Sequence record: NC_105514.1
DNA length: 64,000 bases
From: Escherichia phage JLBYU40
Reading direction: 5' to 3' (one strand)
Shown: in pieces, positions 2,329-45,669 of the stretch
How positions within the stretch are numbered: position 1 is the first letter of the stretch
Layout of the letters: the number at the start of each line of letters is the position of its first letter
Translations under genes and position numbers: made by a program
The notes under the pieces: model-generated
The model's input: the letters and a program-made list of their open reading frames with translations, nothing else
Databases searched by the model: none
What the model was told of the DNA's origin: nothing

Positions 2329-2357
2329 ATTATACAGAACTTTTGGAAACTAAGCAA
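2329..2357 (-). promoter_or_regulatory. sigma70-type promoter (-35 TTGCTT, 17 bp, -10 TATAAT)
   Basis: Plus-strand attata 2329-2334 and aagcaa 2352-2357; conserved cassette. Confidence 0.6.
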
Positions 2358-2627
2358 CTACATTTTTAAGAATTTGATGCCTTTCTTTTTCTTCTTATAT
2401 TTCCACGTTAATGGATTCTGCCGATTGTGAACGCTTGAGATCTTCGTCTCGTCAAAGTTCTTCAATATCATGTAATCACAAGATAATTGTTCTAATGGAA
2501 TGTGATCACCGTCAAAAGCATATACATAAGGCTGTTGACTAACACGATAATGATAGACTTTGTTAATTCTACGTTTTAGCGACTTATCAGCGCAGTAAAT
2601 AAAGAAGTTTTCAGGATGCATCAGCAT
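2358..2627 (-). CDS. hypothetical protein (89 aa)
   Basis: ORF track. Confidence 0.4.
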   Translation of the reverse strand: MLMHPENFFIYCADKSLKRRINKVYHYRVSQQPYVYAFDGDHIPLEQLSCDYMILKNFDETKISSVHNRQNPLTWKYKKKKKGIKFLKM

Positions 2628-2641
2628 CTCCTTCGATTTGG

Positions 2642-2713
2642 TGCACCCTGTTCGTATCGAACGAACCTCTCAAGCTCTTCAGGCAAGCGCTAATCCATCT
2701 CAGCTAAAGGTGC
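2642..2713 (-). tRNA. probable tRNA-Phe (GAA)
   Basis: Acceptor GCACCTT/AGGGTGC, D-stem GCTG/TAGC, anticodon loop CTGAAGA, T-arm GTTCG-TTCGATA-CGAAC; anticodon stem weak (two U.U). Confidence 0.4.
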
Positions 2714-2719
2714 AAATTT

Positions 2720-2796
2720 TGGCAAACCTACTAGGACTCGAACCTAGACCGTACGGTTTTGGAGACCGACATGCTGTCCAGTAACACTCTAGGAAT
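2720..2796 (-). tRNA. possible tRNA-Trp (CCA)
   Basis: T-arm CTAGG-TTCGAGT-CCTAG with encoded CCA, anticodon loop CTCCAAA; acceptor pairing imperfect, 5' boundary uncertain. Confidence 0.35.
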
Positions 2797-2804
2797 GCAG
2801 AAAT

Positions 2805-2881
2805 TGGCGTCCTGTGCGGGGATCGAACCCGCAAATCCTACCTTGAAAGGGTAGTGACTTTACCAGTTTGTCTAACAGGAC
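2805..2881 (-). tRNA. tRNA-Glu (UUC)
   Basis: Acceptor GTCCTGT/ACAGGAC, anticodon arm CTACC-CTTTCAA-GGTAG, T-arm GCGGG-TTCGATC-CCCGC, CCA encoded. Confidence 0.7.
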
Positions 2882-2888
2882 TTAAATT

Positions 2889-2979
2889 TGGTGTTGGATG
2901 ATGGAGTCGAACCACCCGAGACCCTTCCGAGTCGGCAGATTTACAGTCTGCTTCGCTACCTCTACGATACTAATCCAAC
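2889..2979 (-). tRNA. tRNA-Tyr (GUA), long variable arm
   Basis: Acceptor GTTGGAT/ATCCAAC, anticodon arm GCAGA-CTGTAAA-TCTGC, about 18-nt variable arm, T-loop TTCGACT, CCA encoded. Confidence 0.65.
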
Positions 2980-3042
2980 ATATTTAAAAGTATTCAAATA
3001 CTAGTTTAAACACTTTTAAATATGTTTCCGAATTAGATAACT

Positions 3043-3071
3043 ATTATATCAAGTTTTAAGGCACTGAGCAA
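3043..3071 (-). promoter_or_regulatory. sigma70-type promoter driving the tRNA operon (-35 TTGCTC, -10 TATAAT)
   Basis: Plus-strand attata 3043-3048 and gagcaa 3066-3071, 17-bp spacer. Confidence 0.5.
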
Positions 3072-3107
3072 GTCAAATTTTAAAGAACTTGCTCAGTGCT
3101 GTATTAG

Positions 3108-3383
3108 TTAGTCGAACTTAGGAGTGACAGTTAAGGAGAACGGAAGTTCGAAAACTTCTTCGCCCTCATTACTAACGGTAACTACACGACCTTTAAGTTC
3201 AGACATTAAAATATCAATATCAGCTTTTGCATCTGGAGCCATGCCAGCTTCAATACATTTAGCTTTAACTTCCGGTAAAAGCTCTACGTTATAGAGATAG
3301 AGCCACTCAATCTCACCTTCCCAGTCTTCCCAGGATTTGCAGATTGCACTTTCAATACCAGTTGCTACAACACGATTTTGCAT
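3108..3383 (-). CDS. hypothetical protein (91 aa)
   Basis: ORF track. Confidence 0.45.
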   Translation of the reverse strand: MQNRVVATGIESAICKSWEDWEGEIEWLYLYNVELLPEVKAKCIEAGMAPDAKADIDILMSELKGRVVTVSNEGEEVFELPFSLTVTPKFD

Positions 3384-3413
3384 TAATTAACTCCTTCATC
3401 AATTTATATAACT

Positions 3414-3443
3414 ATTATACCAGAAATTTAAAGTAAAAGGCAA
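3414..3443 (-). promoter_or_regulatory. sigma70-type promoter (-35 TTGCCT, -10 TATAAT)
   Basis: Plus-strand attata 3414-3419 and aggcaa 3438-3443, 18-bp spacer. Confidence 0.45.
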
Positions 3444-3473
3444 GTACATTTTTAAAAATTCTGTTTGGAGGAG

Positions 3474-3680
3474 CTAAACTCCAGATTTTTCGGCCAAGTC
3501 TAGACTAATAAGAGTTATAGCCATAATTGCTGCACCGTGTTCTTTTTCTCCGGTGTTTTTAGCAGAGTCTATAATATCCTTAATCTGTTCGTAATAACTT
3601 TTTACTTCTTGTTCAATGCCTGCCTCGGCTATCATGCCTTTAGCCATGAATCGTTGCATGGTAATTTCAGGATTAGCCAT
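3474..3680 (-). CDS. hypothetical protein (68 aa)
   Basis: ORF track; start overlaps stop of upstream small ORF (ATGGCTAA). Confidence 0.4.
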   Translation of the reverse strand: MANPEITMQRFMAKGMIAEAGIEQEVKSYYEQIKDIIDSAKNTGEKEHGAAIMAITLISLDLAEKSGV

Positions 3681-3840
3681 GTTGTTTCTCCAGTTTCATT
3701 TTTAATAGTTTACAGATGAAATCAACGTCTTCATCTGTGCCTAAGTCTCTATCCTCAAGGGTCGCCTTGAAGTTTTTCGTCAATTCCATGAGGATGACTT
3801 CCCTAGAACGACGTGTTGGCGGAGGTGGATGTCTATACAT
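3673..3840 (-). CDS. hypothetical small protein (about 55 aa)
   Basis: Hand-read ORF (MYRHPPPPTRRS...) with SD AAGGAAA upstream of ATG at 3840; stop overlaps next start. Confidence 0.35.
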   Translation of the reverse strand: MYRHPPPPTRRSREVILMELTKNFKATLEDRDLGTDEDVDFICKLLKMKLEKQHG

Positions 3841-3855
3841 CTTATTTCCTTAATT

Positions 3856-3932
3856 TGGTAGGGGTGGTGGGATTCGAACCCACAAAACCTGAATTTTAAG
3901 TCCAGTACCTATGCCAATTCGATTACACCCCC
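3856..3932 (-). tRNA. tRNA with UAA anticodon but short variable arm (identity uncertain)
   Basis: Acceptor GGGGGTG/CACCCCT, anticodon arm CTGGA-CTTAAAA-TTCAG, T-arm GTGGG-TTCGAAT-CCCAC, CCA encoded; D-arm poorly paired. Confidence 0.45.
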
Positions 3933-3939
3933 GTGTAAT

Positions 3940-4128
3940 TTAGTCAATTACTTTTGAAGCTTCAAGGTAGTCGATATAGTGTACGTTTTCTACCGTAATC
4001 ATATAATCTGCCACTTTATCCATAGCTTGGGCTTCAGAGGTAGCTCTGGCTAACCTATATCCTTTTTTATATTCATCAGAGTATTCTCTATCTTGAATAA
4101 ACACAACATAAACTACGTATAATTCCAC
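3940..4128 (-). CDS. hypothetical protein (about 62 aa; GTG start inferred)
   Basis: The 111-aa ORF in the track runs into tRNA genes; AGGGGG then GTG at about 4128 gives a tRNA-free CDS. Confidence 0.3.
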   Translation of the reverse strand: MELYVVYVVFIQDREYSDEYKKGYRLARATSEAQAMDKVADYMITVENVHYIDYLEASKVID

Positions 4129-4150
4129 TTGTAACCCCCTAATTAAGTTG

Positions 4151-4225
4151 GTGGCTCCCCGAGGATTCGAACCTACGTACCTTCCGGTTATGAGCCGGGT
4201 GCTCATACCATATGAGCTTGAGAAC
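4151..4225 (-). tRNA. tRNA with CAU anticodon (Met or Ile2)
   Basis: Acceptor GGTTCTC/GGGAGCC, D-stem GCTC/GAGC, anticodon arm CCCGG-CTCATAA-CCGGA, T-loop TTCGAAT; no encoded CCA. Confidence 0.5.
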
Positions 4226-4231
4226 CAAAAT

Positions 4232-4320
4232 CTGGCGGAAGAAGTGGGAATCGAACCCACAAGGCTATATTTCAAACCGACAGATTAGCAATCTGCTGCA
4301 ATACCGTTATGCTATTCTTC
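4232..4320 (-). tRNA. tRNA-Ser (GCU), long variable arm
   Basis: Acceptor GGAAGAA/TTCTTCC, anticodon arm GCAGA-TTGCTAA-TCTGT, long variable arm, T-arm GTGGG-TTCGATT-CCCAC, CCA encoded. Confidence 0.65.
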
Positions 4321-4342
4321 CGAATTTATAAGATATATTATA

Positions 4343-4864
4343 TTAGAAATTTAGCTTCATAGCAAGAAAATTTTTCAAGTTTTCGGTAGACATCTCATCT
4401 ACATCTACAGGAGAAACAAAGCCGTTTAATTTTCTAGCAAATTTTTCACCATCGGGATCATTGTCTCCAACAGCTACCAATTTAAAAGGTAGTAATTTCA
4501 GTTGCTTTAATAACGCTTTTCCTGGAGAAGAACCCAACATTGCTAGGGCTGGATAACCAGCGTTATGTAACGCAACTGCCTTAAATACAGATTCAGCAAT
4601 CAATACTACTTTTTCATCTCCATTGAGAGTTTCTAGTCCCCATACACACTGGGTAGTAGAATAAGTAAAGTATTTAGCTTCAAAGGGGCACTTACCATGA
4701 CCTTTTGGAGCAGAAGGATTATAAGTTTGATAGCCCCTCAACATCCCAGAGAAGTCATACAACGGGACTGTTAGCCATCCTTCTGGACTTAACCAGCAAT
4801 GATATTTATCTGTATCAAATCCCCTAGATAAGAGGTGCTGTGTTAGCTCATCAACATTCATATT
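4343..4864 (-). CDS. Toprim-like domain protein (hypothetical)
   Basis: Motifs IAESVFK and LVAVGDNDPDGEKFARKL resemble a Toprim acidic patch; start moved to MNVDEL. Confidence 0.4.
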   Translation of the reverse strand, partial: NMNVDELTQHLLSRGFDTDKYHCWLSPEGWLTVPLYDFSGMLRGYQTYNPSAPKGHGKCPFEAKYFTYSTTQCVWGLETLNGDEKVVLIAESVFKAVALHNAGYPALAMLGSSPGKALLKQLKLLPFKLVAVGDNDPDGEKFARKLNGFVSPVDVDEMSTENLKNFLAMKLNF

Positions 4865-4891
4865 TGGTTCCTCTCTCAAATTTATAGATAT

Positions 4892-4920
4892 ATTATACAG
4901 AGAATTTAGCATTCAAGCAA
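4892..4920 (-). promoter_or_regulatory. sigma70-type promoter (-35 TTGCTT, 17 bp, -10 TATAAT)
   Basis: Plus-strand attata 4892-4897, aagcaa 4915-4920. Confidence 0.6.
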
Positions 4921-5036
4921 TCAAATTTTTTAACTTTTTAGAGGAAAATCATAGGGCGCTTAAGGGTAACAGATAAGTGGTGAGGACCAAAATTTGTGAC
5001 CCCACTAAAAATCCGGGGGCAATTTTTAAAGACCCC

Positions 5037-5065
5037 TTGACATTTTCGCTGGGGTAGTGTAAAGT
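5037..5065 (+). promoter_or_regulatory. sigma70-type promoter (-35 TTGACA, about 17 bp, -10 TAAAGT)
   Basis: ttgaca at 5037-5042; TAAAGT/TATAT-like -10 about 17 bp downstream; followed by SD AGGAGG. Confidence 0.5.
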
Positions 5066-5127
5066 ATATGTTATGGATGAGTGATCAAAGAGACACACAT
5101 TTTCTATATACTAGGAGGTGTCAAAAA

Positions 5128-6114
5128 ATGACAGAAGAAGTAGCTAAGAGTCCTGAGACCGTCGCTAGCGTTGCAGCAGAACTGCACCGTCACGAGGAAT
5201 CAGATAAGAAAAAGTGGGAGAAGGTCAGAGCCTACGAAGAAAAACATCGTGAACACGATGATGAAGAAGATGACGATGATGAACATTGTCATAAATATGG
5301 AAAACATAAAATGCAAGAACCAGTAAACGTATTCACTAGTGGCTTCCCTGGCCTACTGGGTGGTTACCCAGCAAACGCAGGTGCTTTCGGTGGTGAAGGT
5401 ATGGGACTATTCGGAGCTATCCTAATCGGTGCTCTATTAACAGGTGGATTCGGTGGTTTCGGTGGATTCGGTGGACGTGGTGTAGTTGGTGAAGGTACCG
5501 CAGTTGATGCAGTACTTCAGAACCAAGATACCGCTAGTATTCTAGCAGCTATTAACACTACTCGTACAGAAGCTAATCAGGGTACTGGGGCTGTGTTAAG
5601 CGCAGTTAACAATGGTTTTAGCCAGACATCCCAAAACCAGAGCCGTGATACTCAGTCTGTACTAACTACGATTTATGGTACAGGTGCTAATCTGTCTAAT
5701 CAGATCTGCCAGGAAACTCGCAACGTTATTCAGGGTCAGTTCGATCTTTCTCGCCAGATTGATCAATCTTTCGCAGCTAACCAGATAGCTCGTGCACAAG
5801 ATAAATTTGATTCTGCACAGATCGCTTTCCAGCAGACTTTACAAACTAATAACCAGTTTGCCGCTGTTCAGGCTCAGATGTGTGCTAACCAGAACTCTCT
5901 GGAACGTCAGATCGCTGAATGTTGCTGTGAACTTCAGACTGCGATCGCTGGTGTAACTACTGCGCGTATCCAGGATGAGTTAGATGCATGTCGCCTACGT
6001 GAGGCAATCGCTGCGGGTAATGGTGCTAACGATCAGGTAATTAATCAAATCGCTGTAAGTCTTGGTGCAATCACTCAGACTCTGGCTGGTCTGCAGGCTA
6101 AACTGCCGGCTTAA
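5128..6114 (+). CDS. hypothetical protein: acidic/His-rich N-terminus, Gly-zipper hydrophobic segment, long Gln/Asn/Ala-rich helical region
   Basis: ATG 5128 after AGGAGG; GFGGFGGFGG and GAILIGALLTGG; codons biased to highly expressed E. coli-like usage. Confidence 0.6.
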   Translation: MTEEVAKSPETVASVAAELHRHEESDKKKWEKVRAYEEKHREHDDEEDDDDEHCHKYGKHKMQEPVNVFTSGFPGLLGGYPANAGAFGGEGMGLFGAILIGALLTGGFGGFGGFGGRGVVGEGTAVDAVLQNQDTASILAAINTTRTEANQGTGAVLSAVNNGFSQTSQNQSRDTQSVLTTIYGTGANLSNQICQETRNVIQGQFDLSRQIDQSFAANQIARAQDKFDSAQIAFQQTLQTNNQFAAVQAQMCANQNSLERQIAECCCELQTAIAGVTTARIQDELDACRLREAIAAGNGANDQVINQIAVSLGAITQTLAGLQAKLPA

Positions 6115-6135
6115 TATTAAGGGGAGGAGCCCATT

Positions 6136-6552
6136 ATGAGTAAATATGGTTTTGTAAATAACGGACTTAATCAAAGTATGGGCTCCCAGCAGCCCATTCC
6201 GGGTCTGGATAACCCCTACTTACAACAATTGCAACAGCGTTTAGCAGAAGCGCAACAGATGCAGCAACAACTCCAGCAAAACCCTGGAAGTGTGAGTCCT
6301 ATGCAAATGATGCAGCAAATGAGCGGGCAGTCGCAAATGCCTCAACAAATGCAGCAACAGGTGCCTCAGCAGCAAGTTCAGCAACAAACCCAACAACCGC
6401 AGGTTTCTGCGGAAGGACAGGCAGTACTAGCCCTTTTCGAAGACTTCGCAAAGACAGAGGATGGGAAACAGCTTGTATCACTTATGGGTAAGTTTAATAG
6501 CTTCTGCCAAAGCCAGGTTGCAAAAGCTCAAAATAGTGGTAATAACTCCTAA
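6136..6552 (+). CDS. hypothetical Gln-rich protein (138 aa)
   Basis: ORF with SD GGGGAGGAG upstream; about 35% Gln in the central region. Confidence 0.5.
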   Translation: MSKYGFVNNGLNQSMGSQQPIPGLDNPYLQQLQQRLAEAQQMQQQLQQNPGSVSPMQMMQQMSGQSQMPQQMQQQVPQQQVQQQTQQPQVSAEGQAVLALFEDFAKTEDGKQLVSLMGKFNSFCQSQVAKAQNSGNNS

Positions 6553-6561
6553 GGAGGAATT

Positions 6562-6756
6562 ATGTGTTGCAGAAAATCTGTTTCGTGCTGCCCAATGCCT
6601 GTAGCACGTTGTTGCTCTCCAGCAATGTTTACGCAAATACCGGCGTTCAATCCGTTTGCCTTTAAGCCTACTCTTATCCTGCCCCCTAGAGTAGATTTTC
6701 AGTCAAGATTGGCCTCCCGTATGGGTAGTTGCTGTAACAAGAGTATATGGTTCTAA
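6562..6756 (+). CDS. hypothetical Cys-rich small protein (64 aa, four CC doublets)
   Basis: Strong SD AAGGAGGA 5 nt before ATG; 8 Cys arranged as CC pairs. Confidence 0.4.
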   Translation: MCCRKSVSCCPMPVARCCSPAMFTQIPAFNPFAFKPTLILPPRVDFQSRLASRMGSCCNKSIWF

Positions 6757-6772
6757 GGAACCAAACAATAAA

Positions 6773-6806
6773 GCCCCTAGTCGAAAGACTTAGGGGCTTT
6801 TCTTTT
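6773..6806 (+). terminator. rho-independent terminator
   Basis: GCCCCTA/TAGGGGC stem followed by TTTTCTTTT. Confidence 0.6.
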
Positions 6807-6816
6807 ATCTTAAATA

Positions 6817-6851
6817 CAGAAAAGCCCTGCGCTCTCTAGGAAACGCAGGGC
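6817..6851 (-). terminator. rho-independent terminator for the convergent minus-strand gene
   Basis: GCCCTGCG/CGCAGGGC 8-bp stem; U-tract on minus strand (plus-strand agaaaa). Confidence 0.55.
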
Positions 6852-6876
6852 TTATTTCAGATGTTACATGCGGGTA

Positions 6877-7824
6877 TTATTTATTACGCATATCCATAAT
6901 CATTTGGCCATCATAGCCAGTGCCAACCACAGTCTGCGGTACACCACCTTGGTATTTCTGAGCACGAATCATTTCAACTTCCAGTTGCTTCCAGCGAATC
7001 ATCTCAGGAGTAATGGTACGTTGCAATGCGGCGTTAGCTTCAGCTTCTTTCTTAGCTGCATATAGTTTAGCATCTGCGTCACGTTCATTGGCAATAGCTT
7101 GGTTGTTGCGAGCTTCACGGTCTGCTTCTGCTTGTTTAACTTTTTGCTGTGCTTCCTGTTCAACGCGAGCCAGTTCAGCTTTCGCAGCATTAACTTGCTC
7201 TTCACGAACTTTGGTATTCTGTACCTGTTCCATGATTACCGGTGGCAAAGTAATATCCTGAAGGAATACCTGCTTAACTGTATAACCATATGGGCGTGCA
7301 TACTCTTCAACTTCCTGTTGAATTGCAGTTTGCAATTGAGCCTGAATTTTAGCATCAAACAAATCTTGTGCTTTAGGTACAGACTTACCAAACTCACGAA
7401 TAGTAGACAGTAATTTTTCAGTTACATACTTGTCTAGTGCCTGATCCTGAGTACCTGCGTTAATACGGTTAATTGGTGCCTTAGAACCATCAAACTGCAA
7501 CATAACAGTCAGGTCAACAGTGGATTTAAACTTATCCTGGCTAGGAACCTGAAGTTTATCTAATTTTACAGCAATATCTTTTGTACTAAAAGTGTCGAAA
7601 GATGCAAATGGGTTTACAAGATGGAAACCTGGTAATACTGGGTTAGGATCTACTTTACCCAGAAATGTTTGGGTTTTAACCGTACCATCAGAAACAATAG
7701 TATATGAATTAAAAGCTAGGATTAAACCTGCTAAACCAACTACAGCACCAATACCCCAACGTTTAATAGTACGAATTACTTTCTGCTCAGAAGTCAGTTC
7801 TTTCATATTTTTAGTATTAAACAT
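6877..7824 (-). CDS. SPFH / band-7 (prohibitin/HflK-like) membrane protein
   Basis: N-terminal TM helix (GIGAVVGLAGLILAF), then SPFH-like core and Ala/Glu/Gln-rich coiled coil. Confidence 0.6.
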   Translation of the reverse strand: MFNTKNMKELTSEQKVIRTIKRWGIGAVVGLAGLILAFNSYTIVSDGTVKTQTFLGKVDPNPVLPGFHLVNPFASFDTFSTKDIAVKLDKLQVPSQDKFKSTVDLTVMLQFDGSKAPINRINAGTQDQALDKYVTEKLLSTIREFGKSVPKAQDLFDAKIQAQLQTAIQQEVEEYARPYGYTVKQVFLQDITLPPVIMEQVQNTKVREEQVNAAKAELARVEQEAQQKVKQAEADREARNNQAIANERDADAKLYAAKKEAEANAALQRTITPEMIRWKQLEVEMIRAQKYQGGVPQTVVGTGYDGQMIMDMRNK

Positions 7825-7858
7825 ATATTTCCTTTGTTTTAGTTACAGTTAATAAAAT

Positions 7859-7933
7859 TGGCCGAGGTGACAGGATTCGAACCTGCATAAAGGAATTTAG
7901 AAGACTCCTGCCTCTCCCTTAGACTACACCCCG
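7859..7933 (-). tRNA. tRNA-Arg (UCU)
   Basis: Acceptor CGGGGTG/CACCTCG, anticodon arm GGAGT-CTTCTAA-ATTCC, T-arm GCAGG-TTCGAAT-CCTGT, CCA encoded. Confidence 0.65.
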
Positions 7934-26077: not shown

Positions 26078-26216
26078 TTTTTATTAGCTGAAATTTGTAA
26101 TCCGGGCTATTAGTGCTCGGATTATTACATAATCTTTCCAGTCGATTGACAGTCAAAATAAATTGTCGTTGACAATTTGGATGGATTATGTAATAATATA
26201 TGTATTGGAGGTGAGG

Positions 26217-26669
26217 ATGTCATTCACACAGCAAGAACTTTTAGATAACTTCCGATATGAAGATGGTAAGTTATTTAGAACTACAGGAAGAAATGCAGGG
26301 AAAGAATGTTGTGTTTCTACGGGTAACGGATATTATCGTATATCTCTAGGGAATAGGACTATGCTTCGGCATAGAGCAATATTTTTAATGCATCATGGAT
26401 ACTTACCTGATTTAGTAGATCATGTGAATACTATAAAAGGTGATGATCGTATTGAAAATCTTAGAGAGCAGACAGTGTCCGGTAATCTAAGAAATATCAA
26501 ATATAAGAAAGGAATGCATGTTTACCCTTCTGGTAGTAAGAACTGGCAAGTAGTATTTACTATTAACCGTAAACGTATAGTTAAAGGAACATATGACAAC
26601 TATGAGGTTGCATGTTCTATGGCCAAGATGTTTAGAGGTCAATTATACGGTAGGGAATCAATCCAGTAA
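26217..26669 (+). CDS. HNH homing endonuclease (HNH plus AP2-like DNA-binding region)
   Basis: Start MSFTQQELL after SD GGAGGTGAGG; HNH region HRAIFLMHHGYLPDLVDHVN..NLR. Confidence 0.55.
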   Translation: MSFTQQELLDNFRYEDGKLFRTTGRNAGKECCVSTGNGYYRISLGNRTMLRHRAIFLMHHGYLPDLVDHVNTIKGDDRIENLREQTVSGNLRNIKYKKGMHVYPSGSKNWQVVFTINRKRIVKGTYDNYEVACSMAKMFRGQLYGRESIQ

Positions 26670-27204
26670 AATTTCATTTGCAAGGGAGTATTATTTTATA
26701 GTATAATATTCCCATAAATGAGAGACATTAGTAAAAATTGATTTTGCTAATTTTTCTTGTTTACAATCCGCGATACGGAACAGTTAGGCTGCCCCATTAA
26801 GGGTTGTTTTAACTGTTACGTGTTAGTTTTTAAACAAATAGTTAATAGAATACTTAGCGATCTGCGTCCCATAGGAACCCTGGTAAGGCCTCGAAGCAAC
26901 CTAGTATGAGGTGGTTGTGAAGTGAGATGGGAGGAGTGAAAAACTCCGAGACGTGATTCTGTAAGTTATATTGCATCTAGTATGAGCTAGTATATGAAGC
27001 ATTAGGTGAGCAAATCTGGCTTAGCGGCCATCCTCAAGGATTTGTGCGGTATAACAAAGCAGCAGCGCAGCGTGAAAGTGGAAGTTGCCACCCCACTTCA
27101 GTATTTGCGATTAATTTGTTGAGAAATTGACAGTAACAGTTGTTCTATTCTTTCTGAATAGTCCTAAAGAAAACTTATTTCATTTCCAACACAGGAGTAT
27201 TGTT

Positions 27205-29991
27205 GTGTTTTCAATCCTACAAGGTCATGCAGGATTTCATCGCGATTTAGCCACAGGCAATTGGCGAGAAGTTAAAGCAGAAGACTATCTTTTTGCTAAA
27301 AGATTTTCCTCAAAGCATCCTGAAGGTAAACCAGCTTCAATGCCCTTCAAGTTTGATGTAATTGATGAAGTTGATCCTCAAACCCTAGTAGAAATGCTTC
27401 CTCTTATGAGACGTTTAACGTCTGACCCTCATATCGTTGCGGTACGAGGTCGATGTCTTGCACCTAAAAATAATGTGCGACGTAAGAAGGGCAACTTTAA
27501 TGTATCTAACCCAAGTCATATAATTGCAATGGACGTGGATGGTATTGTAGATACAGGTGGTTGTAACAAGTTTGATCTTGTTGGCATGGCCCGACATATT
27601 ATTAGGATGTTAAATAGTATTAGTGAGGATATGTTTCCTCTTGATGCAGGGTTTATCGCTCATGCATCATCTTCGGCTGGGCTAAAACCAGGTATCCGAA
27701 TGCACTTAATACTAGAATCTAATGTTAAAGTAACTCAGGGTCAAATCAAGTTCTTATTTACATCTATCAATGAAAGTAGTAGACAAAAGTATGGCTTTGA
27801 TATTGCCGACTTAGCTTATTACTCTTCCGTACAGCTCCATTATTTTGCAGATCCGTTATTTACAGATGGTATAGTAGATCCGTTTAAAGCGGAGGGTGCT
27901 TCACGTCTGGTATTTGTTAAGGGTTCTAAAGTAAATTTACCCAATAATCTGGTTGACTATGAAACAACTAGAGGCGAGTTTAAAGAGGAGTTTTACTCTT
28001 TACTCGATCAAATTAAAGGTAAAAAAGCCGCCTCCGATAAAGTAGAGGAAACTATCAGCGAACTAGAAGAAGCTGAGGATGGAGTGTATCTACGTATTAT
28101 TCCTAAACTCTATCACAGGGCTTTAGAGGATGGTGTTGATTTTGCATGGCTAGAAAAAGAAATCCGTCCAGCCTTATCAGAGTATATTGCAACTAAAGAT
28201 AATAGTCGTAATATTCAAGACTACTTTAACAACGGTCGTAAGCAGGCTCTGAAAGCGTTTGTTAATAATTCTAAACGTGATATACCGGATGTTTTAAAAG
28301 GTATTCCACTTAAAAAGCTAGAAACTAACTCTCTAGAGACTGATAACTTCTTGAAATTAAATACTGTACCACCAGAAGGTTATATGACTTTTGTAAAAGC
28401 AAGTCTAGGTACAGGTAAAACTACGGCGGTTGTGCGTTGGCTGGATTCAGGAGTTATTAAGGGTAATTTCTTAGCAATTACCAATACTAGGGCACTAGTG
28501 TCTTCAAATGCTAAGAAATTTAGTGCAGGACAATATGATAAGTCTGTAGATATGCTTAATTTTAAGCGCGGTGCTATTGACCGTATGTCCACAACTATTC
28601 ACTCTTTACATAAGTTCAAGAGTTTTATTGGTCAAATTGATGCAATCTTTATCGATGAATGTGATGCTGTAATGAATGACCTATTATTCGCCCCGGTTGT
28701 TAAGCAACGTCGCGAGTGTATTCAGGTTCTTCGGGATATTCTTGCAACTGCAAAAATCATTATATTATCTGATGGTGATATTAGTGCTGAAACAATTGAA
28801 GCATATGGTTCTTTGATTGAGTTTGATAAACCGGTTGCATTTTATAATCATCACCGTAAGATGCTGTCAAAAGCTCATGCTTATGAGTTCCCTGATGAAT
28901 CTAGTATTTGGGTTGCACTTCAGACTTCTCTAGAGATGGGTGAGAAATCTATTCTGGTATCTGACTGTGGGCCGGATGAGCTGAATGAGAAGGGCATGGC
29001 ATTGCGTCATAATACGGGTGCATTAGTTAAGGAAATCCACTCAAACTCTACGTCTGATGTAGATATTAGACGTATCCTGGATTACACAACTAATGAGTTA
29101 ATTGACCAACAAATTGATTGCTTATTATGTAGTCCATCCGTAACGAGTGGTGTTGACTTCAACTATTTTGATAACGTATTCGTTATTACTAGAACCAGTA
29201 ATCAGGCGCCAAACATGCGTTTCCAAGCAATCAGGCGCGACCGTGGTGCTCAGAACATCTATTATTTTATTGATAAATCCACTAGTGGATTCTCCGCAGG
29301 TTCCGAACAATATAATATTGATGAAGGTTGGCTGGAGTTAGCACAGCAATTATACGCACGTCGCAGAGAGCTAGAATCTAGGAACTATACTAGTACTTTA
29401 CGTTATTACTTGCTTGATCAGGGTGCAACTATTGATATTTTCAGCGAAAGCTGGGGAACTATTGAAGGTGCTGGTAAAGAGTACACAGAAGAGCGAATTA
29501 AAGCTATTCTACATTCAACTCCGGATTATTGTGCTCCACGTCATGCGGATGCGTATGAAGCTAAACTACTTCTTGTTCGCTATTATCATCTCGAGTCTAT
29601 TAAAGATGTAACAGTTGAGCATGTTGAACAATATATCAAAGATAAACCAAATGATCGAGCTGCATTCTTCCATAAGATGCATGAGATGTTCTGGGAAGAT
29701 ATTAAGAAGTGTTCAAATGTGACCATTAAACCATTCATAGAAGCTCTGAAAGGTAAGAAGAAGGATTTCTTCCTTAAAACAGGTCAGAGTGCTAACCCAA
29801 AATATGCTAGAATGTATCTTGGTATGATGGGTATTGGTAAGGATATGAACACTGAAAATATTGTAGACTGGTACAGAACCTATTGTAAAATCGAGTGTAT
29901 GCCAATTCCTTTCAAATTCATGACAGAGGAAGAGAAGGCTATGGCAGAAGAAGTAATGTCCGAACTTGGAGCAACCAATGAAGATGCATAA
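27205..29991 (+). CDS. large P-loop ATPase / helicase-like protein (putative replication initiator or origin-binding)
   Basis: GTG start after SD AGGAG; Walker A SLGTGKTT, Walker B IFIDECDAV, SGVDF-like motif; about 928 aa. Confidence 0.55.
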   Translation: MFSILQGHAGFHRDLATGNWREVKAEDYLFAKRFSSKHPEGKPASMPFKFDVIDEVDPQTLVEMLPLMRRLTSDPHIVAVRGRCLAPKNNVRRKKGNFNVSNPSHIIAMDVDGIVDTGGCNKFDLVGMARHIIRMLNSISEDMFPLDAGFIAHASSSAGLKPGIRMHLILESNVKVTQGQIKFLFTSINESSRQKYGFDIADLAYYSSVQLHYFADPLFTDGIVDPFKAEGASRLVFVKGSKVNLPNNLVDYETTRGEFKEEFYSLLDQIKGKKAASDKVEETISELEEAEDGVYLRIIPKLYHRALEDGVDFAWLEKEIRPALSEYIATKDNSRNIQDYFNNGRKQALKAFVNNSKRDIPDVLKGIPLKKLETNSLETDNFLKLNTVPPEGYMTFVKASLGTGKTTAVVRWLDSGVIKGNFLAITNTRALVSSNAKKFSAGQYDKSVDMLNFKRGAIDRMSTTIHSLHKFKSFIGQIDAIFIDECDAVMNDLLFAPVVKQRRECIQVLRDILATAKIIILSDGDISAETIEAYGSLIEFDKPVAFYNHHRKMLSKAHAYEFPDESSIWVALQTSLEMGEKSILVSDCGPDELNEKGMALRHNTGALVKEIHSNSTSDVDIRRILDYTTNELIDQQIDCLLCSPSVTSGVDFNYFDNVFVITRTSNQAPNMRFQAIRRDRGAQNIYYFIDKSTSGFSAGSEQYNIDEGWLELAQQLYARRRELESRNYTSTLRYYLLDQGATIDIFSESWGTIEGAGKEYTEERIKAILHSTPDYCAPRHADAYEAKLLLVRYYHLESIKDVTVEHVEQYIKDKPNDRAAFFHKMHEMFWEDIKKCSNVTIKPFIEALKGKKKDFFLKTGQSANPKYARMYLGMMGIGKDMNTENIVDWYRTYCKIECMPIPFKFMTEEEKAMAEEVMSELGATNEDA

Positions 29992-30496
29992 ACCAATGCC
30001 TCCTATGGCATTTATCCTAGAAAAGCTTAGGTATGACGAAAGTACTGGGGACTTAATTTGGTTATCTGGCCCAAGGAAGGGAAAGATAGCGGGCTCCAAA
30101 ATGAAAACTGGGAGACAGTTAGAGTTTATGATAAATGGAGAGCATACAGCTTACTTAGCCCATAGAATAATCTGGTTTATAAAGACAGGCGAAGATCCTG
30201 GAGATAAAACTATCGACCACAAAGACGGTGATAGTTTAAACAACTTGTGGGATAATTTACGTAAGGCTACCTATTCCGAAAATGGAAAGAATAAGAAGTG
30301 TTCTACTAATTCTACCGGATTCACTGGAGTTGTAAAACGAGGTAATAGGTATATGGCCTACGCTTACTGCAATGGAAAACAGCATATTTTTGGTAGACGA
30401 GATACCCCGGAAGAAGCCCATCAGCTATACCTTAGGGGAGTTAAAGAACTGTTTGGTGAATTTAATCCCTCGGAGAGATATGACAGTGAAGAATAA
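29966..30496 (+). CDS. HNH-AP2 homing endonuclease
   Basis: DHKDGDSLNNLWDNLR (HNH) followed by GFTGVVKRGNRYMAYAYCNGKQHIFGRRDTPEEA (AP2-like). Confidence 0.6.
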   Translation: MEQPMKMHKPMPPMAFILEKLRYDESTGDLIWLSGPRKGKIAGSKMKTGRQLEFMINGEHTAYLAHRIIWFIKTGEDPGDKTIDHKDGDSLNNLWDNLRKATYSENGKNKKCSTNSTGFTGVVKRGNRYMAYAYCNGKQHIFGRRDTPEEAHQLYLRGVKELFGEFNPSERYDSEE

Positions 30497-36093: not shown

Positions 36094-37566
36094 ATGACCT
36101 TGTTTAACGTGCAAGCTGTAGTGTTGAAGATGCTTCTAGCTTCCGAACAGAAGCAAATAGCATTGGAAACATTCTCAAAACTGCATAAAGATCATTTTAA
36201 TGACGCTTTCTCCTCAATTTACCAAGCCGTCCAGAATTATTATAAAAAATATAACACAATGCCGTCCATTGATGCACTGATGCTTGAGGCTAATAGGAAC
36301 GCCCGCCTTTCTCAAGCTCTAGTCGTTTTAGCTAACACTCAAATTCCAGAAGTTAGCATGGAACAGGCACTTGAAGTCCTAGAGGCCGAGTATACACAGG
36401 ATTTATTCCTGAAGCTTCTAGAAACAGACGTGCTTCAAGATTTAACAATGCTGGATCAGGGAGAAATTCTTAACCGAGTTGCCTCCCTTCACTTAAAATT
36501 AGAAGAGAAAGTAACGAATACTGGAAAAGTATTCAACGCAGATAACATGCGTATTTTCCAGAGAGAAGAAGATACCAAACTGAACTTAATCGCTCTTGGT
36601 ATTTGTAATGAGTTCGACGCTCAAATTGGTTTAGCTCGCACAGAAACGTTACTGCTTGGTGGTTGGCGTGGTACTGGTAAATCCATTATCTGTTCAAACA
36701 TACAGGTTCAGCAATATTTGAATGGGGATATTGCTCCATACTTCTCAATTGAGATGAAAGAACATGAAGTATTTAGACGTAATCTAGCCATGTTAGCCGG
36801 TGTATCAGCACTAGCAATGCGTAATAATACTCTAGAAGGTGCAGCTCTGTTGAGATTAGCCAGAACTAGAGCTAGGATGTTTAATGGTGGTGAAGAGCTT
36901 TTCGATAACTTCGTTAAACAGTACACAATGGCTAAGATGAGTGATTTCTACGATATGGAAAGTAAGCTAATAGAAGGATATGAGCTACATACTCCTATGA
37001 TTATTGTTTATGATCCTGAGCTGTCTATTACAACAGTTGACGTAGAATTAAATAAATTAGTTGCTAGATATGGGGATAAAGTTACAGTAGCTTTACTGGA
37101 CTATATTAACCAAACCCGACTTCCAGACTCTAAAACCATTGATATGTATGACTGGAAAGAACAGATGGTTGTTAGCTCGTCTTTCAAATCTATCTGCCAG
37201 AAACATAACGTGGCTGGTGTAGCCCCTTACCAGATTGATCAAGATGGTAGAACACGTATGTCAAAGGGGATTCTTGATTCCGCAGACATGGCTGCTAATC
37301 TTAATGCTGCAAAAGCTGATAATGGTCAAGGTGCTATTATGTTTGACTTCGTTAAGACTCGTTCTTCTGATAGCGTGAAGTTTATGCCTAAAATGAACTG
37401 GGAAACCCTACGGATGGATAACACTACCAACCTAGCAATGGAAGATATATCTCAAATGGAAGCTGAGTTCGTTATCCCTATTGAGAAGGATAAGCCGGCT
37501 CAATCTAAACGTGCTAAGAAAGACAAAGCTGAAAATTCAACGGGTGAACAGGCCAGCGATATATGA
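36094..37566 (+). CDS. DnaB-like replicative helicase (RecA-fold ATPase)
   Basis: Start MTLFNV after SD AAAGGAGA; Walker A GGWRGTGKS, DnaB-like C-terminal domain. Confidence 0.65.
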   Translation: MTLFNVQAVVLKMLLASEQKQIALETFSKLHKDHFNDAFSSIYQAVQNYYKKYNTMPSIDALMLEANRNARLSQALVVLANTQIPEVSMEQALEVLEAEYTQDLFLKLLETDVLQDLTMLDQGEILNRVASLHLKLEEKVTNTGKVFNADNMRIFQREEDTKLNLIALGICNEFDAQIGLARTETLLLGGWRGTGKSIICSNIQVQQYLNGDIAPYFSIEMKEHEVFRRNLAMLAGVSALAMRNNTLEGAALLRLARTRARMFNGGEELFDNFVKQYTMAKMSDFYDMESKLIEGYELHTPMIIVYDPELSITTVDVELNKLVARYGDKVTVALLDYINQTRLPDSKTIDMYDWKEQMVVSSSFKSICQKHNVAGVAPYQIDQDGRTRMSKGILDSADMAANLNAAKADNGQGAIMFDFVKTRSSDSVKFMPKMNWETLRMDNTTNLAMEDISQMEAEFVIPIEKDKPAQSKRAKKDKAENSTGEQASDI

Positions 37567-43142: not shown

Positions 43143-43427
43143 ATGCTTACAGAGCCTGATGCTCACCAATTATTGGTCGGTTCCTCATTCATTTTGAATG
43201 AATCAACAATAGTTGATAATCCAAATAAATTGTCTAATAGACAACTGGCAGAATATCTAGGAATTTTAAGTCTACGAAATTATGCCGAATACAAGTTTAC
43301 AAACGATCCTAGTTTGGACATACAATATGTTCCAGTATGGATACCACGGTTAGTAATCGACACTAACCCACTAATCGCAATTAACAAATCGAAATTAATC
43401 TTTAAAGAGGAAATAAAATATGGCTAA
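43143..43427 (+). CDS. hypothetical protein (94 aa)
   Basis: ORF track. Confidence 0.4.
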   Translation: MLTEPDAHQLLVGSSFILNESTIVDNPNKLSNRQLAEYLGILSLRNYAEYKFTNDPSLDIQYVPVWIPRLVIDTNPLIAINKSKLIFKEEIKYG

Positions 43428-44193
43428 GTCTTGGGGCGAAACTACTGGCGGTTCTAACGATAAAATCGAATTCCTGAAGTTCAACAACGGTATCACTCGT
43501 GTTCGTATCGTTTCTGGTGTTCTTCCACGTTATGTCTATTGGCTGACTAATAAAGAGGGTAGCGTAGCTCCTTTCGAATGTCTCCGTTTTAACCGCGACA
43601 AAGAGAGCTTTGTTCGTGGTAAAGCTGATCCGGTTCATGAGATGGGCTTCTTTGAGAAAGAGCTGGATAAAGATGGTAATCGAGTTCCGCTGAAACCGAA
43701 GAAAAACTATATCGCTTTTGTTATCGACCGTTCTGATAACAAACTGAAAGTAATGGAAGTCAAAGCTACTATTCTGAAAGGCATCCAGTCTATCATGAAG
43801 CAGTTGAATCTGGCAACTCCGTTTGATATTGATATTTCTATTGAGAAAAAAGGCAAAGGTTTCGATACTGAGTATGATGTACAGCAGATTGCTGCTATGC
43901 AGTTCCAGATTAAGCTGCAAGATCCTAACAGTGCGGAATCTAAGCAATATGCTGCGGATGTAGATCTGATTGGTGAAGCTATGTGTGATGAAGATGGCGA
44001 CATCATTAAGTTCGAAAAAGTTCCTTCTCTGGAGCAAACATATCCGGTTCCTACCTATGAAGAGCAGAAAGAAGCAATTCAAGCCTTCATGGAAGGTCGT
44101 GAGAATAAAGATGATGATGCCAAATCTGGTAACAGCAATGCTGGTTCCCAGAAAGGTATTGACCAAGAAGCTGCAAGCGATCTGGACGACTAA
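43420..44193 (+). CDS. abundant acidic-tailed protein, possible ssDNA-binding protein
   Basis: Strong SD AAAGAGGAAA; optimal codon usage; acidic C-terminal tail ...DQEAASDLDD. Confidence 0.45.
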   Translation: MAKSWGETTGGSNDKIEFLKFNNGITRVRIVSGVLPRYVYWLTNKEGSVAPFECLRFNRDKESFVRGKADPVHEMGFFEKELDKDGNRVPLKPKKNYIAFVIDRSDNKLKVMEVKATILKGIQSIMKQLNLATPFDIDISIEKKGKGFDTEYDVQQIAAMQFQIKLQDPNSAESKQYAADVDLIGEAMCDEDGDIIKFEKVPSLEQTYPVPTYEEQKEAIQAFMEGRENKDDDAKSGNSNAGSQKGIDQEAASDLDD

Positions 44194-44199
44194 TAAATA

Positions 44200-44220
44200 G
44201 AGGGGCTTCGGCCCCTTTTC
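44200..44220 (+). terminator. rho-independent terminator with UUCG tetraloop
   Basis: GGGGC-TTCG-GCCCC followed by TTTTC. Confidence 0.65.
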
Positions 44221-44230
44221 TTATATCTTT

Positions 44231-44708
44231 ATGATTACACAAGATAGACTTAAAGAGCTATTGGACTATGATCCTCTAACTGGTGTATTTAGATGGAAAG
44301 TCTCAAGGGGAAGAGTATCAAAAGGCTCCATAGCAGGGACGGAAGTATGGGTATCTGATAACTATATCAGATTGGAAATCCGAATTGATGGTAAAAGGTA
44401 TAAAGCACATCAGCTAGCTTTCCTATATGTGTATGGATACATTCCAGAAGAAATCGACCATAAGGATAGGAATCCATTAAATAATGCCATAGATAATTTA
44501 CTAGACTCTTCTAAGTCACGCAATCAGTTGAAATAGAAACAGGAATAGTAATAAAGAATTACCAAAAGGTGTTTTCTTAAAACATTCAACTGGTAGGTAT
44601 TTTGTTCAAATTAAAGGTAAGCATTATGGATATACAGATTCCATACATGAAGCAGAGACTGTAGCAAATGCAGTATATGATAGTCTATTAAGTGAAAATA
44701 CTATTTAG
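44231..44708 (+). pseudogene. frameshifted HNH-AP2 homing endonuclease
   Basis: HNH part in one frame to TAG at 44534-44536; AP2-like part (...LPKGVFLKHSTGRYFVQIKGKHYGYTDSIHEAE...) continues in another frame from about 44532 to TAG 44706-44708 without a start codon. Confidence 0.5.
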
Positions 44709-45669
44709 TGCTGATCATCATATTAAGCTGGGCCAAGATAAAATACCCAAAGAATGGCAGAAGCGTCGCTTCCTGATGCTAGGAGAACGGTTAAATGATA
44801 TATTCCATAATCATAACTGTGATCTTCATATTGCTGGTGGTGATATACTTGATGTTGCCGATCCGTCGTCAGAAGAAATAGAGCTGCTTGAACAGTTCAT
44901 GTCAAGACTCGACCATCCAGGCAAAATCTTTACTGGAAATCATGAAATGTTAACTAAAACCATTTCATGTCTATATCATTATGCAGGAGTTATTAATAAA
45001 GTAACGAGTGGTAAGTGGGAAGTAATTACCAAACCATATCGTTCCCCTGAATTTGATATTGTTCCATATGACGAAATCCATAAATCTAAGTGGAAACCAT
45101 CTGAATCAAAACTATGTTTCACACATGTTCGTGGTGAAATCCCTCCACATGTAAAACCAGAAATTGATCTAACTAAATATAACTGTTATGATACTGTAAT
45201 TGCTGGCGATTTACATTCTTATACTAATAGCCAGACTATCGGATCTACTAGACTTCTCTACCCAGGGTCTCCATTAACTACATCGTTCCATAGAGAACGC
45301 ACAAAAGGTACAAATGGTTGCTTTATCATTGATACCGACACATTAAAAGTAGAATGGATTGAACTCGGTGATTTACCACAACTGATTCGTAAAACAATCG
45401 GAGCTGGTGAAGAGATGGAACCTAGTGATTACGATCGTGTAGTATATGAAGTTACTGGTGACGTTGTTCAGTTAAAGTCAATCAAAGACTCTGATTTATT
45501 AGATAAGAAAATTAACCATCGAGTTACTAAAGACGCTAAGTTAAATCTTGTTGATCTTGATATGCTAGGCGAACTTGAACTTTACTTCCGTGAAGTCGAG
45601 AAGCTATCTCAAGGCGACATTGATAGAATCTTGGCTAGAGCTGCGAAATATGTCAAAGATTACAATTAA
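44692..45669 (+). CDS. SbcD/Mre11-like nuclease
   Basis: Calcineurin-like phosphoesterase motifs (DHH, GNHE); GTG start as in ORF track. Confidence 0.75.
   Translation: MKILFSADHHIKLGQDKIPKEWQKRRFLMLGERLNDIFHNHNCDLHIAGGDILDVADPSSEEIELLEQFMSRLDHPGKIFTGNHEMLTKTISCLYHYAGVINKVTSGKWEVITKPYRSPEFDIVPYDEIHKSKWKPSESKLCFTHVRGEIPPHVKPEIDLTKYNCYDTVIAGDLHSYTNSQTIGSTRLLYPGSPLTTSFHRERTKGTNGCFIIDTDTLKVEWIELGDLPQLIRKTIGAGEEMEPSDYDRVVYEVTGDVVQLKSIKDSDLLDKKINHRVTKDAKLNLVDLDMLGELELYFREVEKLSQGDIDRILARAAKYVKDYN

What the first reader, a model, noticed from the sequence alone, without database searches (positions are those of the whole stretch)
44231..44708. Frameshift-disrupted HNH-AP2 homing endonuclease abutting the SbcD-like gene start
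The HNH half ends at TAG 44534-44536 and the AP2-like half continues in a different frame to TAG 44706-44708 with no start codon, whereas an intact HNH-AP2 copy exists at 29966-30496. The broken gene's 3' end overlaps the GTG start of the SbcD-like gene. It is either a decaying homing endonuclease or one needing a programmed frameshift.
Basis: seen in the sequence. Interest (0 to 1): 0.4.

Follow-up and report, generated by a model that had tools for sequence, protein, structure and literature searches.

The report
Frameshift-broken HNH-AP2 homing endonuclease gene
A small selfish "homing endonuclease" gene wedged between two DNA-repair genes of a T5-like phage has been broken by one extra A; this is the ordinary decay that such genes are known to undergo, not a new mechanism.

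Summary
The window comes from a T5-like phage (Tequintavirus). The 101-aa product is identical to "putative HNH endonuclease [Escherichia phage JLBYU40]".

Between the D11 (single-strand DNA binding) gene with its terminator and the D12/SbcD gene lies a free-standing HNH homing endonuclease gene. Six other phages carry the same gene at the same site as an intact 477-nt, 158-aa ORF. The window differs by one extra A (TTGAATAG becomes TTGAAATAG, A-run 44531-44533). That creates the TAG at 44534-44536 and pushes the C-terminal DNA-binding half into the +1 frame, where there is no start codon.

The two halves match adjacent parts of one family profile (positions 3-98 and 103-160). That profile hits I-HmuI and plant AP2/ERF domains, so "HNH-AP2" holds at family level.

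- **Not programmed:** none of the intact orthologues has the shift, and there is no upstream SD-like sequence or significant downstream structure.
- **Not a noisy assembly:** no other gene in the window is split. An independent Logan assembly (SRR25464455) carries the same extra A.

The "intact copy" at 29966-30496 is only a 32%-identical paralogue. The most likely reading is a recent, real inactivating insertion in a selfish gene. A sequencing error cannot be fully excluded. This is ordinary and already-known biology.

The parts
43420..44193 (+). D11 gene (single-strand DNA binding protein of T5-like phages). It is the upstream neighbour of the insertion.
   Evidence: ORF. Orthologues are annotated 'D11 protein' or 'single strand DNA binding protein'. 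No Pfam hit.
44199..44219 (+). Intrinsic-terminator-like hairpin (GGGGCTTCGGCCCC followed by a T-run) after D11. The endonuclease gene starts 12 nt after it.
   Evidence: Annotated as a terminator in VAH1 and HdH2. Conserved in phages with and without the endonuclease gene.
44231..44536 (+). 5' part of the homing endonuclease gene: an ATG-to-TAG ORF of 101 aa. It holds an N-terminal beta-rich region and the HNH_3 motif (residues 57-99). It ends one residue into the position of the family-invariant N101.
   Evidence: Identical to P0004 'putative HNH endonuclease [Escherichia phage JLBYU40]'.
44531..44533 (+). The lesion: an AAA run where all orthologues have AA. It is a 1-nt insertion that creates the TAG at 44534-44536.
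   Evidence: Alignment. It is the only gap in 10.85 kb against slur09. Also present in the Logan contig L011.
44532..44708 (+). 3' part of the same gene in the +1 frame: a linker plus an AP2-like DNA-binding domain, 58 codons and the TAG at 44706-44708. There is no start codon, so it is not expected to be translated on its own.
   Evidence: Family HMM positions 103-160, E 6.4e-10. AP2/ERF structure hits with the family profile. Predicted beta-beta-beta-alpha at residues 114-155 of the orthologue.
44692..45669 (+). D12 / SbcD-like (Mre11-type) nuclease subunit. It has a GTG start and overlaps the endonuclease gene's last 17 nt.
   Evidence: The Metallophos profile matches from residue 1. A TAA lies directly upstream at 44689-44691. 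Phages without the insertion have ATG at the same position.
29966..30496 (+). Intact paralogue of the same family (HNH_3, phrog_99), 32% identical, in a separate insertion site.
   Evidence: The stretch 29982-30475 has no counterpart in T5_ev219 or slur09.
26163..26669 (+). Third, more distant family member in the window (HNH_3).
   Evidence: Family HMM E 3.2e-19. Pfam HNH_3. Window 26092-27132 is unaligned to T5_ev219 and slur09.

Best explanation
This is a free-standing HNH-AP2 homing endonuclease gene (HEG). It sits between the D11 terminator and the start of the D12/SbcD gene of a T5-like phage.

**Intact form (shown in relatives, function inferred).** The 158-aa protein would bind a specific DNA site through its C-terminal AP2-like domain. 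It would nick or cut a HEG-less phage genome with its N-terminal HNH (His-Me finger) domain during co-infection. Recombinational repair would then copy the gene into that genome.

**In this phage (shown).** A single A was inserted into an AA run at 44531-44533. Translation therefore stops at TAG 44534-44536 after 101 residues. The AP2-like half lies untranslatable in the +1 frame.

**Consequences (inferred).** The product lacks its DNA-binding domain and the family-invariant Asn101, so the gene is most likely an inactive, recently formed pseudogene. The change is most likely a real mutation tolerated because the gene is selfish and dispensable. It is not a programmed frameshift. D12 must now be translated from its GTG without any ribosomes delivered by the upstream ORF.
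For: **The lesion**
- Six orthologues at the identical locus are uninterrupted 477-nt ORFs: phB7, slur09, HK6, MET_P1_179_112, KookSpook and VAH1. The window differs by one extra A.
- Deleting it restores a protein 97.5-98.7% identical to the orthologues.
- The two frames hit consecutive parts of one family profile.

**Mobile-gene behaviour**
- Only 7 of 439 matching phage records (6 distinct phages) carry the insert. In the HEG-less records examined, 12 nt lie between the terminator and the D12 ATG.
- The window's closest genome-wide relatives (T5_ev219, PMBT29, SPLA5b) lack it.

**Domain identity**
- Pfam HNH_3 scores 50 bits, and phrog_99 'HNH endonuclease' gives E 5e-51.
- The family profile hits I-HmuI 1u3e (E 3.4e-9) and AP2/ERF domains 7wq5, 7et4, 5wx9 and 1gcc (E 2e-10 to 4e-3).
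- 30 of 40 homologues hit Pfam AP2.
- The AF2 model has pLDDT 88. Its HNH helix ends at residue 101, a low-confidence linker follows, and residues 114-155 form beta-beta-beta-alpha.
- Foldseek's top hit is I-HmuI, followed by the lambda Int arm-binding domain and the TEM1 AP2 domain.

**The gene is functional in relatives**
- dN/dS is 0.03-0.26 among orthologues. So the break is recent, with only one window-specific amino-acid change (K104R).

**Real rather than noise**
- Among 157 reference ORFs with hits in the window, the HEG is the only split of an annotated gene. The one other multi-frame hit lies in the unannotated 5' extension of a T5_ev219 ORF.
- The extra A is the only gap in 10.85 kb against slur09.
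- A Logan assembly of run SRR25464455 is 100% identical over 1183 nt, including the extra A.

**Precedent**
- A frameshift-split HNH/AP2 pair (ICP1 gp115-gp116) was interpreted as an inactivated HEG. HEGs are described there as unstable owing to frameshifts (PMC10448857).
Against: - I cannot tell whether SRR25464455 is an independent sample or the same isolate's reads, so a platform-specific indel error is not fully excluded.
- No expression or activity data exist.
- The truncated ORF keeps nearly the whole HNH_3 motif (Pfam positions 1-45 of 46). Residual non-specific or trans-acting activity therefore cannot be ruled out.
- Homing, and the cleavage site, have not been demonstrated for any member of this locus-specific family.
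Confidence: 0.78

Rival explanations
1. Sequencing, assembly or stock artefact. The phage really carries the intact 477-nt gene, and the extra A is a base-calling or consensus error, or a minority variant in the sequenced lysate.
For: The lesion is a 1-nt length change in a homopolymer, which is the classic error type. The restored ORF is otherwise nearly identical to the functional orthologues. A second window-specific change (A to G, K104R) lies about 9 nt downstream, which could hint at a locally poor consensus.
Against: The run is only 2 to 3 nt long. No other annotated gene in the 64-kb window is split relative to slur09 or T5_ev219, and unpaired indels in coding sequence are otherwise absent. 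An independently assembled Logan contig from SRR25464455 carries the same AAA.
Confidence: 0.14
2. Programmed or fortuitous +1 ribosomal frameshifting at UUG-AAA-UAG restores a full-length HNH-AP2 protein. The P-site tRNA-Lys would slip from AAA to AAU at the hungry stop codon.
For: A stop codon in the A site next to a Lys AAA codon is a context in which low-level +1 slippage is conceivable (established knowledge of prfB-type and 'shifty stop' sites). The required shift is exactly +1.
Against: None of the six orthologues in the phage collection, nor the Logan orthologue L012, needs a shift, so nothing has been selected for recoding. No SD-like stimulator lies upstream. Downstream RNA structure is not significant (z = -0.76). 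There is no Rfam match. Re-pairing of tRNA-Lys on AAU leaves a third-position mismatch (inference).
Confidence: 0.03
3. The 101-aa HNH-only product is a functional protein in its own right. It could act, for example, as a nickase used in trans or as a regulator, and the truncation would then be adaptive.
For: HNH_3 still scores 50.3 bits in the truncated ORF. Short stand-alone HNH proteins exist in phages (established knowledge). One homologue of 96 aa and one of 101 aa appear in the homologue list (P0093 and P0116).
Against: The truncation is unique to this phage and recent. It removes the invariant N101 and the whole DNA-binding domain. Orthologues are under purifying selection along their full length.
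Confidence: 0.05

Closest known systems
HNH-AP2 homing endonuclease family (Magnani, Sjolander & Hake 2004, Plant Cell 16:2265, as cited in PMC10448857); 'IPA-HNH' HEGs of Vibrio phage ICP1, including the frameshift-split gp115/gp116 (Barth et al. 2023, PMC10448857)
   Same: N-terminal HNH and C-terminal AP2-like DNA-binding domain in a protein of about 160 aa. The gene is free-standing, lies between conserved phage genes, and is variably present among close relatives. As with ICP1 gp115-gp116, a frameshift separates the HNH ORF from the AP2 ORF.
   Different: The phage lineage (Tequintavirus) and the insertion site (D11/D12 junction) differ. This family matches Pfam HNH_3 directly, whereas the ICP1 genes needed HMM-HMM searches. 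The window protein's own AP2 half is too diverged for Pfam AP2.
I-HmuI (Bacillus phage SPO1 HNH homing endonuclease, PDB 1u3e)
   Same: It is the best structural match (Foldseek prob 1.00) and a strong profile match (E 3.4e-9). The N-terminal beta region plus the HNH beta-beta-alpha-metal core align, and the D-H dyad and the Asn of the motif align (D76/H77/N98 against D74/H75/N96). The catalytic roles of those I-HmuI residues are from my own knowledge of that structure.
   Different: I-HmuI is intron-encoded. Its C-terminal DNA-binding modules are helical, not AP2-like. The alignment stops at about residue 114.
Free-standing HEGs of T-even phages (seg and mob genes of T4)
   Same: Intergenic insertion next to an essential DNA-metabolism gene, patchy distribution, and an expected homing mechanism of cleavage followed by recombinational repair with co-conversion of flanks (established knowledge; PMC2330249 abstract, seen, for SegB).
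   Different: The nuclease families differ (GIY-YIG for Seg; HNH without AP2 for Mob). No cleavage site or homing has been shown for the T5-like gene.
Programmed +1 frameshifting of prfB (RF2)
   Same: A +1 shift would be needed at a stop codon.
   Different: There is no conservation, no upstream SD-like stimulator and no shift-prone CUU-U type site. It resembles prfB only in the arithmetic of the frames.

Membership tests
HNH / His-Me finger endonucleases (Pfam HNH_3, I-HmuI-like) | Match to the HNH_3 profile above the curated threshold | tested here: met
   50.3 bits (truncated ORF) and 49.4 bits (restored ORF) against a cutoff of 24.8.
HNH / His-Me finger endonucleases (Pfam HNH_3, I-HmuI-like) | Conserved D-H dyad and motif Asn residues in register with a solved HNH homing endonuclease | tested here: met
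   The family profile aligns IDHKDRN...N with I-HmuI VVDHKDGN...N. H77, N85, N89 and N98 are nearly invariant and N101 is invariant. In the window, N101 is replaced by K followed by a stop.
HNH / His-Me finger endonucleases (Pfam HNH_3, I-HmuI-like) | Metal-dependent DNA nicking or cleavage | not testable with these tools
   Needs purified protein.
HNH-AP2 homing endonucleases | C-terminal AP2-type DNA-binding domain (three-stranded sheet plus helix) | tested here: met
   Family level: the profile hits AP2/ERF structures (7wq5 at 2e-10, 7et4 at 6e-6, 5wx9 at 1e-4, 1gcc at 4e-3), and 30 of 40 homologues hit Pfam AP2. The model has E114-117, E122-127, E130-135 and H138-155. Foldseek gives the lambda Int N-domain prob 0.97 and the TEM1 AP2 domain prob 0.63. 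Caveat: the window's own half does not reach Pfam AP2.
HNH-AP2 homing endonucleases | Both domains encoded in one translatable ORF | tested here: not met
   Split by the extra A at 44531-44533, and the second half has no start codon. The feature is met in all six orthologues. The window gene is therefore a disrupted member.
Free-standing homing endonuclease genes (mobile) | Presence/absence polymorphism at a fixed site between conserved genes | tested here: met
   7 of 439 records carry it, always between the D11 terminator and the D12 start. In the HEG-less records examined, 12 nt lie there.
Free-standing homing endonuclease genes (mobile) | Distribution incongruent with genome relatedness | tested here: met
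   The closest genome-wide relatives (T5_ev219, PMBT29, SPLA5b) lack it. The VAH1 allele is 72% identical while its flanks are 95-98.5% identical.
Free-standing homing endonuclease genes (mobile) | Site-specific cleavage of the HEG-less allele and unidirectional inheritance in mixed infection | not testable with these tools
   Needs in vitro cleavage and co-infection crosses. A search for a HEG-linked resistant haplotype in D12 was inconclusive, because HEG-less Gostya9 and Spc35 share the window's D12 5' haplotype.
Programmed +1 ribosomal frameshift sites | The frameshift is conserved among orthologues | tested here: not met
   None of the six phage-collection orthologues nor Logan L012 has the shift.
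Programmed +1 ribosomal frameshift sites | Stimulatory elements (upstream SD-like sequence, downstream structure) | tested here: not met
   No SD-like sequence in the 25 nt upstream. Fold z-score is -0.76. No Rfam hit.

The most novel reading that the evidence does not exclude
The extra A might not be simple decay. One possibility is that UUG-AAA-UAG-A supports appreciable +1 slippage. The phage would then make mostly a 101-aa HNH-only protein plus a small amount of full-length endonuclease, which would down-tune a toxic selfish nuclease. A second possibility is that loss of HEG translation through the 17-nt overlap alters expression of the SD-less, GTG-initiated D12/SbcD gene, so that decay of the selfish gene is coupled to dosage of a host-gene nuclease.
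Probability: 0.04. Interest if true: 0.45.

Novelty: already known. Interest (0 to 1): 0.1.

Why it matters
It matters little beyond annotation. The public record annotates only the 101-aa fragment as "putative HNH endonuclease". It would be better flagged as a frameshifted pseudogene of a 158-aa HNH-AP2 homing endonuclease.

The locus is a clean natural example of the homing-endonuclease life cycle of invasion, purifying selection while spreading, then decay, here in T5-like phages. It also gives a ready-made inactive control allele for anyone who wants to test homing at the D11/D12 junction.

It is also a reminder that D12 in these phages starts at the GTG inside the endonuclease gene's 3' end. 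At least one public annotation (KookSpook) places the start at a downstream ATG, which would remove the N-terminal DHH motif.

Tried and rejected
At only 32% identity it is useless for locating the indel. True orthologues from other phages were used instead.
2. **Pfam AP2 on the window's C-terminal half.** No hit at E <= 1. A single-sequence PDB search found only spurious LRR matches. The AP2 relationship appeared only with a 40-sequence family profile.
3. **Homing target or immunity signature.** Ten substitutions cluster in the first 60 nt of D12 against three HEG-less phages. That looked like a HEG-linked resistant haplotype. However, HEG-less Gostya9, Spc35 and about 20 other records share it. 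It is therefore a population dimorphism, not proof of a cleavage site. Only the GTG start, K2 and the C at D12 nucleotide 10 are HEG-linked.
4. **Noisy-assembly hypothesis.** I looked for other split genes and unpaired indels against slur09 and T5_ev219. No other annotated gene is split.
5. **Recoding signals.** No Rfam family, no significant structure, and promoter-like sites at the frequency expected by chance.
6. **Window record in the phage collection.** The best match is 98.5% locally and about 96% over 24 kb. The identity (JLBYU40, accession OK272480 according to PMC12695862) came from the protein database.

Full report
**What is in the sequence.** The second stretch has no in-frame ATG, GTG or TTG. 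The SbcD-like ORF starts at GTG 44692, immediately after an in-frame TAA at 44689-44691. The endonuclease reading frame therefore overlaps it by 17 nt. The Pfam Metallophos match begins at residue 1 of that ORF, so this start is needed for a complete domain.

**Where the window comes from.** Megablast places the region in T5-like phages (Demerecviridae, Tequintavirus). The neighbours are D11, a single-strand DNA binding protein, and D12/D13, which correspond to SbcD and SbcC. The 101-aa product is 100% identical to a database entry named "putative HNH endonuclease [Escherichia phage JLBYU40]" (P0004). A paper gives the accession of that phage as OK272480 (PMC12695862). That record is not in the phage collection searched here. 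The best local match is phB7 at 98.5%, and the best match over 24 kb is about 96%.

**The lesion.**
- Of 439 phage records matching the D11-D12 region, only 7 (six distinct phages) contain the roughly 460-nt insert. These are phB7, slur09, HK6, MET_P1_179_112, KookSpook and VAH1.
- In every one of them the gene is an uninterrupted 477-nt ORF at the same position. tblastn covers residues 1-158 in one frame.
- The multiple alignment shows a single difference in length. The window reads TTGAAATAG where all the others read TTG-AATAG.
- The A-run occupies 44531-44533.
- Deleting one A restores a 158-aa protein that is 97.5-98.7% identical to the slur09-clade orthologues and 76.6% identical to the VAH1 allele.
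- A family HMM built from 40 homologues hits the first frame at profile positions 3-98 (E 2.7e-45) and the second frame at 103-160 (E 6.4e-10).

The two frames therefore encode consecutive parts of one protein. The alternative that they belong to unrelated proteins is refuted.

**Real mutation or error?**
- Against slur09, the extra A is the only gap in a 10.85-kb alignment. Against T5_ev219 there is no gap at all in the 11 kb upstream.
- When all ORFs of at least 70 aa from slur09 and T5_ev219 were searched against the window, the endonuclease gene was the only annotated gene split between two frames. The one other case lies in an unannotated 5' extension of a T5_ev219 ORF. The assembly is therefore not indel-prone.
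- A Logan contig assembled independently from SRA run SRR25464455 is 100% identical to window 44182-45364 and includes the AAA. I cannot determine whether that run is the same isolate, so a platform artefact is unlikely but not excluded.

**What the gene is.**
- The restored protein and the truncated ORF both pass Pfam HNH_3 (49-50 bits against a cutoff of 24.8). They match phrog_99 "HNH endonuclease" over residues 1-154 (E 4.8e-51).
- The window's C-terminal half alone does not reach Pfam AP2.
- The family profile does match AP2/ERF domain structures: WRI1 7wq5 at E 2e-10, TEM1 7et4 at 6e-6, ERF096 5wx9 at 1e-4 and AtERF1 1gcc at 4e-3, all at profile positions about 106-161. It matches the HNH homing endonuclease I-HmuI (1u3e) at E 3.4e-9 over positions 41-114.
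- Thirty of the 40 homologues hit Pfam AP2 individually.
- An AlphaFold model of the 97%-identical orthologue P0001 has a mean pLDDT of 88. It shows an N-terminal beta-rich region, the HNH strands and a helix ending at residue 101, a low-confidence linker, and then three strands and a long helix at residues 114-155.
- Foldseek ranks I-HmuI first (prob 1.00). The lambda integrase arm-binding domain follows (prob 0.97), and the TEM1 AP2 domain scores prob 0.63. None of these has a strong E-value for the whole two-domain model.

"HNH-AP2" is therefore supported at family level. The frameshift falls exactly at the end of the HNH helix. It replaces the family-invariant Asn101 with Lys followed by a stop and cuts off the linker and the whole DNA-binding domain.

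**Behaviour as a mobile gene.**
- The insert lies between the D11 terminator hairpin (44199-44219) and the D12 start.
- In phages without it, 12 nt separate the terminator from the D12 ATG.
- The last five or six codons and the stop of the endonuclease gene are supplied by the native 5' end of D12.
- The window's closest relatives genome-wide lack the insert.
- The VAH1 allele is only 72% identical at nucleotide level, although its flanks are 95-98.5% identical.
- Among orthologues dN/dS is 0.03-0.26. The gene is therefore maintained by selection where it is intact. The window allele carries only one private amino-acid change, which points to a recent break.

I looked for a HEG-linked resistant haplotype. 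Ten substitutions cluster within 44696-44751 relative to three HEG-less phages. However, HEG-less Gostya9, Spc35 and about 20 other records share the window's haplotype. This is a population dimorphism and does not identify the target site. Only the GTG start (ATG in VAH1 and in all HEG-less genomes), Lys2 and a C at D12 nucleotide 10 are linked to the insert.

**Programmed frameshift?** The shift needed is +1, at UUG-AAA-UAG.
- None of the intact orthologues needs it.
- The A-run is far too short for transcriptional slippage (established knowledge).
- There is no SD-like sequence upstream.
- The downstream RNA folds no better than shuffled controls (z = -0.76).
- Rfam finds nothing relevant.

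I give recoding about 3%.

**Comparison with what is known.** The HNH-AP2 architecture is an established family of homing endonucleases in phages, cyanobacteria and protists. It was defined by Magnani et al. 2004, cited in PMC10448857. The same paper describes an exactly analogous case in Vibrio phage ICP1: gp115 (HNH) and gp116 (AP2) are interpreted as one endonuclease gene inactivated by a frameshift. It also notes that such genes are generally unstable owing to frameshifts, variable stops and deletions. Variable HNH endonuclease content among Tequintavirus genomes is also reported (PMC12639943). Orthologues of this gene are already annotated "putative homing endonuclease" (phB7) and "HNH endonuclease" (KookSpook).

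**Verdict.** It is wrong, or at best very unlikely, in its second, a programmed frameshift. The "intact copy" is a distant paralogue rather than a copy. The finding is ordinary. Its practical value is as an annotation correction and as a natural null allele for homing experiments.

Noticed in passing
window 26163-26669 (+): A third HNH_3 family gene (family HMM E 3.2e-19; Pfam HNH_3). It lies in a stretch (26092-27132) that has no counterpart in T5_ev219 or slur09, so it is probably another free-standing homing endonuclease insertion.
   Followed up: partly
window 29966-30496 (+): The intact paralogue sits in a 494-nt stretch (29982-30475) that is absent from T5_ev219 and slur09. It overlaps the 3' end of the 954-aa gene 27127-29991. 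It is a separate HEG insertion, 32% identical to the broken one.
   Followed up: partly
window ~37563-37566: The window lacks the HNH homing endonuclease gene of about 530 nt that T5_ev219 (L009 39805-40335) and slur09 (L010 28557-29090) carry between the DnaB-like helicase and the primase. HEG content is mosaic among these phages.
   Followed up: no
window 44994; L009 ~47300: T5_ev219 has a 1-nt deletion relative to the window and slur09 inside D12/SbcD. Its SbcD is annotated as a truncated 702-nt CDS, so this may be a frameshift or sequencing error in that public record.
   Followed up: no
window 44692-44751: D12 starts with GTG here and in the slur09 clade, but with ATG in VAH1 and in all HEG-less phages. 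There is no SD-like sequence in either case. The first 60 nt of D12 are dimorphic in the population: 10 clustered differences against T5_ev212, HdH2 and T5_ev219, while the window's haplotype is shared with HEG-less Gostya9 and Spc35. The KookSpook annotation starts D12 at a downstream ATG, which would delete the N-terminal DHH motif.
   Followed up: partly
L006 (VAH1) 631-1107 versus window 44231-44691: The VAH1 allele of the same HEG at the same site is only 72% identical at nucleotide level (dS saturated, dN 0.16), while the flanking D11 and D12 are 95-98.5% identical. Old, diverged HEG lineages occupy one locus in otherwise homogenised genomes.
   Followed up: partly
L011 (Logan SRR25464455_10) = window 44182-45364: This independent contig ends close to the left boundary of the HEG insertion (the D11 terminator). 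That might reflect a mixed HEG-plus and HEG-less population breaking the assembly graph. The sample metadata are unknown.
   Followed up: no
window 85-7933 (-): A cluster of 12 phage tRNA genes (Met, Pro, Asp, Asn, Cys, Phe, Trp, Glu, Tyr, Leu, Ser, Arg), typical of T5-like phages. No suppressor tRNA is among them.
   Followed up: no
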